Virus record (IMG/VR): IMGVR_UViG_3300010885_020282
Coordinates: 10,676-74,675 of that record
Length of the DNA stretch: 64,000 nt
Strand: one strand, 5' to 3'
From: a virus
Below the pieces are notes generated by a model. That model was not told the origin of the DNA and ran no database searches. It worked only from the letters and a program-made list of their open reading frames with translations. Of this stretch, positions 206 to 3,535 are shown piece by piece (the stretch's first letter is position 1; each line of letters begins with the position of its first letter). Made by a program: the position numbers and the translations under genes.

Positions 206-544
206 ATGGCAGACATTTACACAATTTGGGCAGACAAAGAAGGCGACATCTCAGACTTAGACTGGGTCAACGGCATGAAAAGTTTCTTTGAACATTTGAA
301 ATTTGAAGGCAAGCTGGAAGACTATCGCATCACTAGATGCAAGATGGGATTCCGTTCAATTGCAGACATGCCAGAATGGATGATACTCATGGAGTTCCGG
401 GACATGGCTCAGATGGATCTAGCATTCAAACGTGTTGCACCTCTCGCAGGTGAACTAGAAGCCAAACACAAATCATTCAATCAATTTGTTTCAGGCACAA
501 TACAACATGCATTGTTCCGTGATTGGCCTGATACGTTTGTATAA
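206..544 (+). CDS. small conserved protein, DUF6614-like (dimeric alpha-beta barrel type)
   Basis: 112 aa; DIYxIWxD...HLKxEG...RITRxKxG...E(W/F)xIxxEFxDxAQxDxAF...H...ALxRDxPD pattern recalled for DUF6614 proteins; stop overlaps next ATG. Confidence 0.55.
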   Translation: MADIYTIWADKEGDISDLDWVNGMKSFFEHLKFEGKLEDYRITRCKMGFRSIADMPEWMILMEFRDMAQMDLAFKRVAPLAGELEAKHKSFNQFVSGTIQHALFRDWPDTFV

Positions 545-1608
545 TGCAACCCATATGCGTGGTTAGTTCGTCCCCGGTTGGATGCACATTCCTTGACTGG
601 AGTTTGCATTTTCTTTCAGGACAAGATCAATACTACCATGTTGAACAGCAACAGTGGAGGCCTTTGTCACAATCGCCCCTGAGCAAACTCAATGCACACG
701 GGCATGCTAAAAATCACCCCAATGGCTTAGATATCACACGTATTTTTGCCATGTCCATTGAGCTTGAACAACAAAAAGCAGATAACCATGACAAACTGTT
801 TTCATTTTATTCCGCGCCTATGACCATGCGAATAGCATCCAAGAGAGCAGGAGCAAATAGTTTTAATGAGTTTAGTGACCCAACTACATTAGCACGAGCC
901 CAATCTCTTATCAAGCAGGACTTTGTTGATATGATACAGCATTGCTTAGATACCAATATCAATGTAGTGTATGTGCAACCGGATAATACTGCAATAACTG
1001 CACAGTGGAGATTCCGCAACGATAATCGATTGTTTAACAATGGGCTAACTGCTACCCCAGACGAACAACAACAAGAATTTCAAAATGCGTTTTTTAGCAA
1101 AAGCCAAACTAGCTGGGCAAGTCAAGGATTAACAGAAGTATGGGATCAACGAGAACGCATAGCATTGGATTTTAGGCCGTTTGATACAGACAAGTTTTTG
1201 CTTGATCAGGATGTTGGGTTTAATAAACCACACCAACGTATTAGTAGTTTAGATTTGTGGATAAACACAGAGGAAACAACACTAGGGGCGTTGCAACAAC
1301 TTGGATTACCAATTAACACCCAGAGACGCCAGGCCTGGCAATTGATTGCACAACAATGGCAAAAGATGCATTTGCAAAATATCAAATTCTATCATGAAAT
1401 TGATCATATAGTAAAAGCCATTGTCAATGGTTGGTATTACAATATAGGCGATCTTGAATTAATACAAGAAGCAATCATACAGCATTGTTTGATTTACAAA
1501 CACAATCTCAATTTAAAAACGTGGGGATTATCAAAGTTTCCACGCAACACACAAGACTTACATGTGTTATTGGAAGATAACATTCATACAGTACCAGTTA
1601 TCTATTAA
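544..1608 (+). CDS. hypothetical protein, possibly sulfotransferase/P-loop-like fold; paralogous to 6044-6844
   Basis: 354-aa ORF, TAATG coupling with upstream gene; N-terminal strand + SSSPVGCTFLDWSL loop; C-terminal IQEAIIQ...FPRNTQDL motif shared with 6044-6844. Confidence 0.6.
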   Translation: MQPICVVSSSPVGCTFLDWSLHFLSGQDQYYHVEQQQWRPLSQSPLSKLNAHGHAKNHPNGLDITRIFAMSIELEQQKADNHDKLFSFYSAPMTMRIASKRAGANSFNEFSDPTTLARAQSLIKQDFVDMIQHCLDTNINVVYVQPDNTAITAQWRFRNDNRLFNNGLTATPDEQQQEFQNAFFSKSQTSWASQGLTEVWDQRERIALDFRPFDTDKFLLDQDVGFNKPHQRISSLDLWINTEETTLGALQQLGLPINTQRRQAWQLIAQQWQKMHLQNIKFYHEIDHIVKAIVNGWYYNIGDLELIQEAIIQHCLIYKHNLNLKTWGLSKFPRNTQDLHVLLEDNIHTVPVIY

Positions 1609-2030
1609 AGATGTACTTCGTACATCTGTTCTTCGCTTACGCTCGAACTGTTTCTTGACTTCAGTATCATCTAGATTCTTTGGTCATACTTGCCCGTTGC
1701 CGGGCAAGATCTGACATCATCCGAGTTCGAACAGTCATCTAGTATTAGAGAATTTGTCTTTCTTAGAAGTACAACTGTGAGTGGAATTGTACTTGTTACA
1801 AAGACAGCAGAGGCGGTTGTGCGGTACCTCTTATCTCAGCCTTGTCTCACAACGGAGCGCAGTTGATCCCATACTAGCGAAATCACTTGCGGACGGGTTG
1901 TATCTATTTCACAGAGCCCGAATCATTTAGCCTAAGTTAGCTTGTCCTTTGACGCCCAAGTCTGAATATGGTATCTCACATATCCTCAATGGGGTTGGGT
2001 CATGTCACCCAACACAGTGTCTATTAGAAA
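1609..2030 (-). ncRNA. putative ~420-nt structured non-coding RNA (family unassigned) directly downstream of the GIY-YIG gene
   Basis: Only long intergenic region in the window; at least 9 stems by eye (e.g. 1689-1696/1701-1708, 1755-1761/1800-1806 with 1767-1774/1787-1794, 1994-2000/2007-2013, 1609-1616/1620-1627); GNRA loops (GCAA, GUAA) and a G-U pair form only in the minus-strand reading; long-range 7-bp pair 1739-1745/1871-1877. Confidence 0.6.
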
Positions 2031-2459
2031 TTAAATTTTGTTTAAAATGTGACTGCCATGCACACGTACTTGTATGTGGCCGTTGTAATAATCTGTTGAC
2101 TCTAATACTTTTCTTGCAAATTGTTCACGAGCCTCAATGTAACTACATTCTGACTTGCTTTTGCAATAGTAAAGTATTTCTCTGGAGAAGTTTTCGGTGC
2201 CTAATTGTTCAGTGTCTTTGGTTAGCTCAGGGCTTGAGCCCCAATACTCTCGCCAGTCTGAATCGACTTTTGATCGTATTTTCTTTTTCTTCTTCGTGCC
2301 GTTCTTTTGTTTTACAGTTTTGTAAGTTGTTTTTGAGAACTTAGCTAGTTTTTTGCCTATGTACTTGCGACCAGATAGATTATTTGTGATTAAGTAAACA
2401 AAGCCCACACATTCATCGGGTAGAGTCTCCACTGGGGTGTTTTGAAAATACCATGTCAT
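2031..2459 (-). CDS. GIY-YIG family endonuclease (single-domain, Seg/DenA-like, T4-like phage type)
   Basis: 142 aa; GFVY-x10-YIG motif (GFVYLITNNLSGRKYIGKK), Y-x-GSS, conserved E (YIEAREQ) and YYN; Lys-rich insert. Confidence 0.85.
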   Translation of the reverse strand: MTWYFQNTPVETLPDECVGFVYLITNNLSGRKYIGKKLAKFSKTTYKTVKQKNGTKKKKKIRSKVDSDWREYWGSSPELTKDTEQLGTENFSREILYYCKSKSECSYIEAREQFARKVLESTDYYNGHIQVRVHGSHILNKI

Positions 2460-2515
2460 GCTGTGTGTTTTTGTTTTGCATTGTAGTTATAGTGTAGTTG
2501 CCTGTGTGGTAAAAT

Positions 2516-3535
2516 TTACCATTCTGTTGTGTGATCAGCATCAGACAAACGTGCGGGTGTACATTTGGTCTGACATTCTAAGCTGTCGAAGCGCAGAAAA
2601 TCTGTGCTCCAGAACGGATCTTGTAAAATTTCGTTGAATGTTCGGTGATTGAGATTGAATTGAGATTCTGCCAGTTGATGCCAGTTTGAGTTGTGTTCGT
2701 AACGATTGGCAGTCCAACAGCAAGGGTAAAATTCTCCCCGACTGTTTAAAAACACGCCTTTGTTGCCTATCATACAGATGCCCGAATAGTTGCCTAATTG
2801 TGTTGCTCGTTTTTGAAATTCAATTCGAAGTTCCTGTCCCGGCCTGACTTTTGAGGTCAAGGCAGTTACCACACGTTCATATCTGTGTGCAGACGCCACT
2901 AATGCAGAGTCAGAGGGTTCTAGTAAATCTCTAGTGCCATAGGCACTGGGGTATTTACTACCAAATTTTGTGGATTTTGTTAGCTGAAAACAGTCAAAAT
3001 TTTGTTCTTTTGCTAGAGTTTTCATGTGCTCTAACTGGTGCTGATTGAAGTTAAATGCAATTGAATCGCACACTCTATAAGTGGCAGAGTTGTGTGTAAA
3101 AAATTCCTGTATGCCTTGCTGTATTGATTGCCAGTTGGAATTAACACGGTATTTTTCATTGCTGGCTTGATCCCAGCCATCTAGACTCCAGTGTATTTCG
3201 TCTCGATTTGTCAATATGCCTGCTAGTGACTGCCACCACTGTGGCGTTTTATAGCTGCCGTTTGTTATGATCACAAGTTCTATGCTTGGGCTTGTTTGTT
3301 TAAGCCACTCGCAAATTTCTAAAAATTCTCGACAGTATATGGGGTCGCCGTCGTTGCCGCAAAATGTAATTTTGCGTATTTGTTGAACAACATCAGCACC
3401 CAGTTGATGCTTAAAAAATGCCAAGGATAGTTGTCGATTTAACAAACTTTCAGGAACCTCAGCACGTGGGCACCTGGGGCACTTTAGTGTGCAGATGCTC
3501 GATAACTCAACGTGCCAATGGTCCCACTTGATCAT
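2516..3535 (-). CDS. radical SAM protein with C-terminal SPASM/twitch domain
   Basis: CTLKCPRC (CxxxCxxC), GNDGDP, TNG, SLDG motifs; C-terminal C...G(E)FYPCC...CQTKC. Confidence 0.85.
   Translation of the reverse strand: MIKWDHWHVELSSICTLKCPRCPRAEVPESLLNRQLSLAFFKHQLGADVVQQIRKITFCGNDGDPIYCREFLEICEWLKQTSPSIELVIITNGSYKTPQWWQSLAGILTNRDEIHWSLDGWDQASNEKYRVNSNWQSIQQGIQEFFTHNSATYRVCDSIAFNFNQHQLEHMKTLAKEQNFDCFQLTKSTKFGSKYPSAYGTRDLLEPSDSALVASAHRYERVVTALTSKVRPGQELRIEFQKRATQLGNYSGICMIGNKGVFLNSRGEFYPCCWTANRYEHNSNWHQLAESQFNLNHRTFNEILQDPFWSTDFLRFDSLECQTKCTPARLSDADHTTEW

What the first reader, a model, noticed from the sequence alone, without database searches (positions are those of the whole stretch)
1609..2459. 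GIY-YIG nuclease gene followed immediately by a ~420-nt highly structured RNA: candidate nuclease-RNA system
Seen: in a genome where almost all genes abut or overlap, 422 bp are left non-coding right after the stop of a 142-aa GIY-YIG gene, on the same (minus) strand as the structural signals. Stems: 1994-2000/2007-2013; 1966-1970/1979-1983 (extends by a G-U pair only on minus); 1894-1897/1917-1920; 1858-1867/1882-1891 (interrupted); 1809-1813/1827-1831; 1755-1761/1800-1806 with inner 1767-1774/1787-1794; 1689-1696/1701-1708 capped by GCAA (minus) and extended by 1683-1686/1712-1715; 1628-1648 capped by GUAA; terminal 1609-1616/1620-1627. The nuclease has only a catalytic domain with a Lys-rich insert (KTVKQKNGTKKKKKIRSK) and no appended DNA-recognition domain. 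Established: compact nucleases with an adjacent structured RNA are the architecture of TnpB/IscB-omegaRNA and HEARO loci; large phage ncRNAs such as GOLLD/ROOL exist. Inference: this could be an undescribed ribonucleoprotein (RNA-guided or RNA-scaffolded GIY-YIG) or a new large phage ncRNA co-transcribed with it. I cannot assign it to a known family by eye.
Basis: partly seen in the sequence, partly recalled or inferred. Interest (0 to 1): 0.85.

Follow-up and report, generated by a model that had tools for sequence, protein, structure and literature searches.

The report
Knotted twin-box phage RNA behind nuclease
The gene-free 420 bases behind a small DNA-cutting enzyme gene of this uncultured giant freshwater phage encode a real, multiply knotted non-coding RNA; it belongs to a widespread family known only from one catalogued fragment, nothing shows that it guides the enzyme, and its job is still unknown.

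Summary
Confirmed: window 1609-2021 (minus strand) is a conserved, about 415-nt structured RNA that starts about 10 nt after the stop codon of a 142-aa GIY-YIG gene and ends in a terminator hairpin. On 30 distinct relatives, 98% of cells pair, and 44 of 80 pairs show compensatory changes against about 20 in shuffles. Two pseudoknots covary.

The RNA is modular. All relatives share a 3' module of about 150 nt that carries one 7-nt word twice, and both copies change together. Three alternative 5' domains precede it. The window's type A has no Rfam hit. Type B is Polynucleobacter-1 (RF01718), recorded in 2010 as lying downstream of the same gene family.

The linkage to GIY-YIG is near-universal but looks positional, not functional:
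- Near-identical GIY genes carry different RNA types.
- Word variants do not track GIY residues.
- Cultured GIY homologues lack the RNA.
- One RNA locus lacks GIY.
- No guide-like segment exists.

Best reading: a single-copy, trans-acting scaffold RNA made as the 3' end of the GIY transcript, whose twin boxes serve a bivalent partner or self-pairing.

This scan had already met the family on more than 80 other genomes, with the same verdict. Novelty: new variant of a known kind.

The parts
2031..2459 (-). 142-aa single-domain GIY-YIG nuclease gene (SegE-type catalytic domain with a basic beta-hairpin insert)
   Evidence: Pfam PF19835 at 1.5e-32. AlphaFold pLDDT 95.9. I-TevI catalytic domain at Foldseek probability 0.99. 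dN/dS about 0.11. Homologous to PSSM2_218 at 36% identity, E 2e-20.
2482..2490 (-). ATAACTACA motif upstream of the GIY start, conserved in most relatives; candidate promoter or operator of the GIY-RNA unit
   Evidence: The alignment of 102 distinct upstream regions shows (C/G)ATAACTA(T/C)A 5-40 nt before the ATG. It is not a general motif of the window: 2 matches, at chance level.
1609..2021 (-). The whole structured RNA, about 415 nt, from the first conserved bases about 10 nt after the stop codon to the terminator hairpin
1854..2021 (-). Type A 5' domain, with no Rfam match. It holds hairpin 1994-2013, helix CCCA/UGGG around hairpin 1964-1985, the AACUUA-loop hairpin 1929-1942, hairpin 1894-1920 and the long hairpin 1858-1892.
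   Evidence: Compensatory changes occur in helices 1, 3, 5 and 7. The domain is replaced by RF01718 or by a third domain in other relatives.
1871..1877 (-). Pseudoknot 1, 5' strand: the hairpin loop CUAGUAU, which pairs with 1739-1745
   Evidence: Covaries: AUCUAUU/AAUAGAU, AUUUAUU/AAUAAAU, CUUGUAU/AUACAAG, AUUUAC/GUAAAU (helix 8).
1739..1745 (-). Pseudoknot 1, 3' strand: AUACUAG, overlapping box E0 (UAGAUGACUG, 1732-1741)
1848..1853 (-). Pseudoknot 2, 5' strand: GUUGUG, which pairs with the hairpin loop 1816-1821
   Evidence: GUUGAU/GUCAAC in most relatives becomes GUUGUG/CACAAC here (helix 9).
1810..1830 (-). Hairpin GAGGU...GCCUC, whose loop CACAAC (1816-1821) forms pseudoknot 2. It belongs to the core shared by types A and B.
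1755..1806 (-). Lineage-specific inserted hairpin, absent from most relatives
   Evidence: Alignment A1, columns 255-296.
1601..1753 (-). Universal 3' module shared by all three RNA types
   Evidence: Model R1 scores 122.6 bits, E 1.3e-28. nhmmer hits in 206 of 243 related loci. One copy in each of 4 genomes that are 95-100% complete.
1715..1726 (-). Twin box E1: ACUC + word GGAUGAU + G
   Evidence: Identity covariation with E2.
1665..1676 (-). Twin box E2: AUCU + word AGAUGAU + A
   Evidence: The window is one of only two cases seen where the first letter of the word differs between the two boxes.
1689..1708 (-). Hairpin with a GCAA loop between the two boxes
   Evidence: Covaries (helix 14).
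1628..1648 (-). Hairpin with a GA/GAA internal loop and a GUAA tetraloop
   Evidence: 7 of 8 pairs show compensatory changes (helices 15-16).
1609..1627 (-). Terminal hairpin, probably an intrinsic terminator shared with the convergent gene
   Evidence: Covaries. It was too weak for the simple terminator scan.

Best explanation
The gap encodes a single-copy, trans-acting structured non-coding RNA of a giant T4-like freshwater phage. It is a new type A member of a modular family whose type B members begin with the Rfam motif Polynucleobacter-1.

Inferred expression: the RNA is transcribed as the 3' end of the short GIY-YIG transcription unit. That unit runs from its own conserved upstream motif, through the GIY ORF and the RNA, to a terminator. 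The RNA probably persists as a stable species.

Shown by sequence comparison: a pseudoknotted scaffold holds two copies of one 7-nt word in a duplicated unit of about 25 nt (GUGAC-N6-AYYY-word).

Inferred function: the two identical boxes are two equivalent contact sites. They could bind a bivalent partner such as a dimeric protein. Alternatively they could pair with each other, in cis or between two RNA molecules, as a symmetric non-Watson-Crick duplex. The exchangeable 5' domains would tune what the scaffold does.

Linkage to the nuclease: the neighbourhood to GIY-YIG is positional. The nuclease gene marks a recombination boundary, at which RNA types are exchanged. It is not the RNA's obligate partner.
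For: A real RNA on the minus strand:
- Fold z=-3.5 on the minus strand against -1.1 on the plus strand.
- 98.1% of cells pair against 88.1% in shuffles. 44 of 80 pairs have compensatory changes against 19.6 (0 of 500 shuffles reach this). Slid controls give 4-12.
- Many invariant G-U pairs would be A-C mismatches on the other strand.
- Both pseudoknots covary.

Family and distribution:
- Three 5' types share one 3' module.
- There is one copy in each of 4 genomes that are 95-100% complete.
- The RNA is restricted to phages. Only 8 hits, all on MAG contigs, occur in 185,579 species genomes.

Position in the transcription unit:
- The RNA always sits at the end of the unit, right after a stop codon, even when another ORF is inserted between GIY and the RNA.
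- A conserved motif lies upstream of GIY.
- A contig of an RNA library bridges the stop codon, 1983-2204.

Twin boxes change together through at least 13 words.

Uncoupling from GIY:
- L008 and L017 are 95% identical upstream and 97% in GIY, yet carry different RNA types.
- L002 and L003 are 96% identical in GIY, with both flanks unalignable.
- The GIY tree needs at least 18 type switches.
- No association links word variants to GIY residues; normalised MI is at most 0.25.
- The syntenic locus L093 has the RNA without GIY.
Against: - No direct evidence shows a discrete stable transcript. Only Logan contigs of one freshwater metatranscriptome were available, and DNA carry-over is not excluded.
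- No partner was found for the twin boxes.
- The near-universal adjacency to GIY-YIG, which persists down to 49% GIY identity, still fits a functional tie that does not depend on RNA type.
- The symmetric-duplex idea rests on few informative variants. It does not by itself force the G-to-A change at word position 5 to occur in both boxes.
Confidence: 0.5

Rival explanations
1. Ribonucleoprotein: the RNA binds the adjacent minimal GIY-YIG nuclease and scaffolds, targets or restrains it.
For: - The linkage is tight and co-oriented in about 200 loci, across GIY identities from 49 to 100% and across all three RNA types.
- The two are probably co-transcribed.
- The protein has no DNA-recognition domain.
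- In the RNA-linked clade the protein carries a basic beta-hairpin about 6 residues longer than in homologues without the RNA.
Against: - There is no guide-like variable segment.
- RNA types reassort against near-identical GIY genes.
- Twin-word variants do not covary with GIY residues.
- The GIY family works without this RNA in Kyanoviridae, Melnitz, phiM12 and ACP17.
- L093 has the RNA without GIY.
Confidence: 0.12
2. Homing-type linkage: the GIY-YIG gene is a free-standing, Seg-like endonuclease lodged next to a conserved RNA gene, as segB lies in the T4 tRNA cluster (from my own knowledge). It drives gene conversion of the neighbouring RNA. The RNA's function is separate. This explains the adjacency rather than the RNA, and it is compatible with the best explanation.
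For: - The GIY ORF behaves as a recombination island with breakpoints at its ends.
- RNA types switch on the GIY tree.
- In cyanophages the homologous gene often lies just upstream of tRNA genes: S-SSM4, Bellamy, S-CAM9.
- Nuclease genes are reported to sit at boundaries of genetic exchange between phages (PMC10448857, title and abstract).
Against: - The gene is present in almost every relative instead of sporadically.
- dN/dS is about 0.11 with dS about 1, which indicates long vertical history under purifying selection.
- There is no C-terminal DNA-binding domain.
- The position after gp46 or the radical SAM gene is syntenic in 91 of 126 loci.
Confidence: 0.2
3. Cis-acting 3' UTR: the structure only stabilises the GIY-YIG mRNA or controls its translation or decay.
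For: - The RNA always lies directly after a stop codon at the 3' end of the unit.
- No promoter-like site lies between the ORF and the RNA.
Against: - About 400 nt with two or more covarying pseudoknots, a duplicated box unit and exchangeable domains is far more than a 3' stabiliser needs.
- The RNA keeps its place when a different ORF precedes it: the orf354 homologue, or the 350-aa ORF of L093.
Confidence: 0.12
4. DNA-level element such as iterons of an origin or nuclease recognition sites, or a decayed coding remnant such as a lost C-terminal domain of a Seg protein.
For: - Direct repeats that keep identical sequence resemble iterons.
- T4 Seg proteins are longer (from my own knowledge).
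Against: - Covariation preserves G-U pairs on one strand only.
- The fold signal is strand-asymmetric.
- The spacing of the boxes varies.
- No conserved reading frame exists. The longest open frames differ in frame and lie antisense.
- Thousands of homologues are also 130-160 aa.
Confidence: 0.03

Closest known systems
Polynucleobacter-1 RNA motif (Rfam RF01718; Weinberg et al. 2010, PMC2864571)
   Same: - Sister RNAs in L047, L011 and L006 match RF01718 at 94-118 bits in their first 135 nt or so. They share the window RNA's core and 3' module.
- The 2010 supplement already noted the position downstream of gene family GOS11034, likened to PSSM2_218.
- I show that PSSM2_218 is the GIY-YIG family: 36% identity, E 2e-20.
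   Different: - The window's own 5' domain gives no RF01718 hit even at E<=10 and has another architecture.
- The catalogued motif is 141 nt, while the real RNA is 390-620 nt.
- The 3' module, the twin boxes, the pseudoknots, the phage origin and the nuclease identity are not in the Rfam entry or in the one paper found that names the motif.
GOLLD, ROOL and OLE large ornate RNAs (Rfam; cryo-EM in PMC12286853)
   Same: They are large, elaborately folded RNAs without a known function. They are often encoded by phages or prophages, and they form homo-oligomers through RNA-RNA contacts. That offers a precedent for self-pairing boxes.
   Different: - There is no sequence or covariance-model similarity.
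- This RNA is smaller, at about 415 nt.
- Oligomerisation was not tested here.
IscB/HEARO and TnpB omegaRNA systems (OMEGA; review PMC13565253)
   Same: A compact nuclease gene lies next to a structured RNA of a few hundred nucleotides.
   Different: - Those nucleases belong to the RuvC/HNH families, and their RNA carries a variable guide next to a transposon end.
- Here the nuclease is GIY-YIG.
- Here there is no guide segment, no transposon ends, no protein-RNA covariation, and no HEARO hit.
Free-standing GIY-YIG homing endonucleases of T4 (Seg proteins; I-TevI catalytic domain, PDB 1mk0/1ln0)
   Same: The protein has a SegE-type catalytic domain and an I-TevI-like fold. Its gene sits at a recombination boundary.
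   Different: - It has only 142 aa and no DNA-binding domain.
- It is under strong purifying selection.
- It is nearly universal in its clade.
- It is a conserved cyanophage gene cluster, T4-GC 213.

Membership tests
Polynucleobacter-1 RNA (RF01718) | Covariance-model score at or above the gathering score (37 bits) | tested here: not met
   No hit on window 1400-2700 even at E<=10. Met by relatives L047, L011 and L006 at 94-118 bits.
Polynucleobacter-1 RNA (RF01718) | Lies downstream of the GOS11034 / PSSM2_218 gene family | tested here: met
   PSSM2_218 is homologous to the window's GIY-YIG, E 2e-20, and the RNA starts about 10 nt after its stop codon. GOS11034 itself could not be looked up.
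Extended twin-box family (this report and earlier reports of this scan) | 3' module with a duplicated GUGAC-N6-AYYY-word unit, a GA/GAA hairpin and a terminator | tested here: met
   R1 scores 122.6 bits at 1601-1753. The boxes lie at 1715-1726 and 1665-1676.
RNA-guided nuclease systems (OMEGA: IscB/HEARO, TnpB) | A variable guide segment joined to a conserved scaffold | tested here: not met
   The variable parts are folded domains or inserted hairpins. The only short variable words are the twin boxes. No complementary target was found in cis or in 4 complete genomes.
RNA-guided nuclease systems (OMEGA: IscB/HEARO, TnpB) | A nuclease of the RuvC/HNH type, and an RNA that matches HEARO or omegaRNA models | tested here: not met
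   The protein is a single GIY-YIG domain. No Rfam hit.
RNA-guided nuclease systems (OMEGA: IscB/HEARO, TnpB) | The protein needs the RNA for binding or cleavage | not testable with these tools
   This needs biochemistry. Indirectly, there is no protein-RNA covariation, and GIY homologues occur without the RNA.
Seg-type free-standing homing endonuclease | N-terminal GIY-YIG catalytic domain | tested here: met
   PF19835 at 1.5e-32. I-TevI catalytic domain at probability 0.99.
Seg-type free-standing homing endonuclease | C-terminal DNA-binding domain | tested here: not met
   The protein has 142 aa, all in one domain. The family is mostly 130-160 aa.
Seg-type free-standing homing endonuclease | Sporadic, mobile distribution | tested here: inconclusive
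   The ORF is a recombination island. However, it is nearly universal, syntenic and under purifying selection.
Group I intron carrying a GIY-YIG ORF | Intron core model and flanking exons of a host gene | tested here: not met
   No Intron_gpI hit at E<=10. The flanks are a stop codon and a convergent gene, and they vary between relatives.
GOLLD / ROOL | Match to the Rfam models | tested here: not met

The most novel reading that the evidence does not exclude
One of two readings could hold. In the first, the twin boxes are a self-recognition interface. The two identical words pair as a symmetric non-Watson-Crick duplex (R-U, G.A, A.G, U.U, G.A, A.G, U-R), within one RNA or between RNA molecules. 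The phage would then build an RNA-only assembly, and the exchangeable 5' domains would set its specificity. In the second, the RNA is after all a type-independent cofactor that gives the domain-less GIY-YIG nuclease its substrate choice. Either reading would be a new kind of phage RNA machine.
Probability: 0.15. Interest if true: 0.9.

Novelty: new variant of a known kind. Interest (0 to 1): 0.6.

Why it matters
The family is abundant. It belongs to giant T4-like phages of lakes. The public record holds only a 141-nt orphan motif for one of its three forms.

A 400-nt RNA with several covarying pseudoknots is the sort of RNA that usually turns out to be a ribozyme, a scaffold or an assembly. 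This one also has swappable domains and a duplicated word that evolves in lock-step.

Defining the full-length RNA gives experimenters a concrete object. The main pieces are the universal 3' module, the twin boxes and the weak case for a nuclease guide. It also corrects two things. The motif is not a 5' cis-regulator, and the 'NAD synthetase' label of the upstream gene family is wrong.

Tried and rejected
1. Known RNA families: none at gathering score in the window, and none at E<=10 in 1400-2700. Weak snoRNA-like and tmRNA-like rows in relatives are chance.
2. tRNA or tmRNA: none in the window or in 60 related loci. The relatives' 14-28 tRNAs lie about 80-115 kb away.
3. Coding remnant or small ORFs: open frames are not conserved in frame.
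4. A complementary partner of the twin word in cis, including the GIY ORF: none is consistent. An apparent match after the terminator is the end of a convergent gene.
5. A trans target encoded by the phage: in 4 complete genomes with 3 different words, no orthologous site follows the word as its complement or as a further copy.
6. Covariation of the word with GIY residues: none.
7. Expression: one freshwater metatranscriptome holds relatives as contigs only. This says nothing about ends, strand or abundance.
8. The RNA in cultured phages (Melnitz, S-SSM4, phiM12, P-HM1, Bellamy, S-CAM9, ACP17, PA5oct): absent.
9. Looser pattern scans for rare twin words failed with machine errors.
10. The RNAalifold consensus of the mixed-type 3' alignment found only the terminator, so model R1 is nearly sequence-only.
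11. Seven more distant GIY loci show another ORF instead of a gap within the 1.5 kb fetched. Whether the RNA follows that ORF is unresolved.
12. The sigma-70 and terminator scans found nothing inside 1609-2459.

Full report
**Observation.** The window is part of a 74.7-kb IMG/VR phage contig. A 142-aa ORF lies at 2031-2459 on the minus strand. It is followed by 422 nt without a minus-strand ORF, up to the stop of a convergent ORF at 544-1608. The ORF is a SegE-type GIY-YIG domain (PF19835, 1.5e-32). The gap has no tRNA. It has no Rfam match at gathering score in the whole window, and none at E<=10 locally. As RNA, the minus strand folds far better than shuffles (z=-3.5). The plus strand does not (z=-1.1).

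**Conservation and structure.** I fetched 80 loci through the protein. Every one of the 77 with enough downstream sequence has a homologue of the gap, on the same strand. In an alignment of 31 type A sequences, RNAalifold found 72 pairs, 38 of them with compensatory changes. I added two pseudoknots seen in the alignment and counted again:
- 98.1% of cells pair, against 88.1% in shuffles.
- 44 of 80 pairs have changes on both sides, against 19.6 (0 of 500 shuffles reach this).
- Structures with every 3' partner slid by 1-3 columns give only 4-12 such pairs.

Pseudoknot 1 joins the loop at 1871-1877 to 1739-1745. It covaries, for example AUCUAUU/AAUAGAU, AUUUAUU/AAUAAAU and CUUGUAU/AUACAAG. Pseudoknot 2 joins 1848-1853 to the loop at 1816-1821; GUUGAU/GUCAAC in relatives becomes GUUGUG/CACAAC here. 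Many invariant G-U pairs fix the strand. Open frames in the region are not conserved. The feature is therefore a real RNA of about 415 nt. It starts about 10 nt after the stop codon and ends in a hairpin at 1609-1627.

**A modular family, partly catalogued.** Rfam searches on relatives showed that in L047, L011 and L006 the first 135 nt or so after the GIY stop are the Polynucleobacter-1 motif (RF01718, 94-118 bits). Clustering of about 140 loci gives three 5' domains:
- Type B is RF01718, in 78 loci.
- Type A is the window's form, in 52 loci, with no Rfam hit.
- Type C is found in 11 loci.

Types A and B share a core with pseudoknot 2. All three share a 3' module of about 150 nt.

The 2010 supplement says that Polynucleobacter-1 lies downstream of gene family GOS11034, which it likens to PSSM2_218, and that it was not seen in purified phages. 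PSSM2_218 (T4-GC 213, labelled 'NAD synthetase') is a homologue of the window's GIY-YIG: 36% identity, E 2e-20. No other paper in the library names the motif.

The RNA is single-copy in four genomes of 332-355 kb that are 95-100% complete. In 185,579 species genomes it occurs only on 8 contigs of freshwater MAGs, which are probably misbinned phage contigs.

**Twin boxes.** In the 3' module, two boxes carry the same 7-nt word after ACUC and AUCU. In the window they lie at 1715-1726 and 1665-1676. At least 13 words occur, among them AGAUGAU, GGAUAAU, ACAUGAA, GCAUAAU, AGCUGAA and AGACGAA. The two copies almost always agree. The window is one of two cases that differ, and only at the first letter (G versus A). 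The whole unit GUGAC-N6-AYYY-word is duplicated. I found no reader for the word:
- No complement occurs in cis.
- No orthologous complementary site and no further copy occur in four complete genomes with three different words.
- No association links word variants to GIY residues.

One untested idea fits several facts. The boxes could pair with each other as a symmetric non-canonical duplex, 5'-RGAUGAU-3' over 3'-UAGUAGR-5'. This makes A/G at position 1 neutral, because it pairs with U7. It turns the A3-to-C change of L053 into two C-G pairs. It turns the U4-to-C change of L057 into a C.C pair in place of U.U. It does not by itself explain why the G5-to-A change must occur in both boxes. Large phage RNAs that self-assemble are known (PMC12286853).

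**Relation to the nuclease.** An RNA-first scan found GIY upstream on the same strand in 63 of 64 loci with room, at GIY identities down to 49%. The gap between the GIY stop and the 3' module is either 240-415 nt or about 1.0-1.2 kb. In the second case an ORF sits between GIY and the RNA. In some loci that ORF is the homologue of the window's convergent orf354.

A conserved ATAACTA(Y)A motif precedes the GIY start and is not a general motif of the window. With the terminal hairpin it defines a short transcription unit. An RNA-library contig bridges the stop codon, which is weak evidence.

Five results argue against a functional pair:
1. Near-identical GIY genes carry different RNA types. L008 and L017 are 95% identical upstream and 97% in GIY, and then become unalignable. 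L002 and L003 are 96% identical in GIY with both flanks unrelated. The GIY tree needs at least 18 type switches.
2. No GIY residue tracks the word.
3. GIY homologues of Melnitz, cyanophages, phiM12 and ACP17 have no such RNA.
4. The syntenic locus L093 has a PD-(D/E)XK gene and an unknown ORF in front of the RNA, and no GIY in 192 kb.
5. Nothing in the RNA looks like a guide.

**The protein.** It is under strong purifying selection: dN/dS is about 0.11 with dS about 1. It is a single, confidently folded domain with an ordered basic beta-hairpin, and it is closest to the I-TevI catalytic domain. The family numbers about 2,000 clusters at 50% identity, mostly 130-160 aa. The locus is syntenic: GIY follows gp46 directly or after a radical SAM gene in 91 of 126 loci. 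By gp46, the nearest cultured phage is PA5oct at 51% identity, and it lacks both GIY at that place and the RNA.

**Reading.** I take the RNA to be an independent, trans-acting scaffold RNA made as the 3' end of the GIY unit. The nuclease gene marks a recombination boundary (compare PMC10448857) at which RNA types are exchanged. The RNP reading is not excluded, because adjacency is so constant, but I put it near 0.12.

**Earlier work of this scan.** Look-ups after my own analysis showed that the scan has met this family on more than 80 other genomes. Follow-ups reached the same verdict: a twin-box RNA related to Polynucleobacter-1, with an unknown reader and no tie to the nuclease.
- Confirmation, on this window and its relatives, that type A lacks any Rfam hit.
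- The demonstration that PSSM2_218 is the GIY family.
- The recombination-island behaviour of the GIY ORF.
- The whole-genome negative tests for a trans target.
- The symmetric-duplex idea.

Noticed in passing
window 2482-2490 (minus) and the upstream regions of L002-L164: A conserved (C/G)ATAACTA(T/C)A motif lies 5-40 nt before the GIY-YIG start in most relatives. It occurs only twice in the 64-kb window, so it is a locus-specific promoter or operator candidate, not the phage's general promoter.
   Followed up: partly
window 544-1608 (plus); L022, L023, L059, L080: The 354-aa convergent ORF next to the RNA has homologues (31-34% identity) that sit between GIY-YIG and the RNA, on the same strand, in other phages. 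The ORF abuts the RNA gene in both arrangements, which points to a local inversion or transposition.
   Followed up: partly
L093:5468-6996 (minus): In a syntenic relative, a PDDEXK_15 endonuclease gene and a 350-aa ORF of unknown function precede the RNA, where the other loci have GIY-YIG. A different nuclease sits at the same boundary.
   Followed up: partly
phage records NC_006883, NC_020875, NC_015280 and others; PHROG 447: This GIY-YIG family (T4-GC 213) is widely labelled 'NAD synthetase' in RefSeq and PHROGs. Pfam and the predicted fold show a GIY-YIG nuclease domain, so the label looks like a propagated error.
   Followed up: yes
L083, L207, L208 (cyanophages S-SSM4, Bellamy, S-CAM9): In several cyanophages, tRNA genes begin 0.2-0.8 kb downstream of the homologous GIY-YIG gene. 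The slot after this gene tends to hold stable-RNA genes in two phage lineages.
   Followed up: no
G002-G005 (complete relatives, 332-355 kb): The relatives carry 14-28 tRNA genes, mostly in one cluster, including three or four with anticodon CAU. The cluster is about 80-115 kb from the RNA locus.
   Followed up: no
L214, L216 (NZ_JBBAKG010000003.1 and NZ_JBBAKG010000001.1, Haliscomenobacter sp. MAG EUL_031): Contigs of 148 kb and 183 kb in a bacterial MAG carry the phage RNA's 3' module. They are probably misbinned jumbo-phage contigs.
   Followed up: no
window 2496-2512 (minus): A small hairpin (GGUAAAUUUUACC) follows the stop of the radical SAM gene, just before the GIY upstream motif. It may be a terminator that separates the two units.
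   Followed up: no
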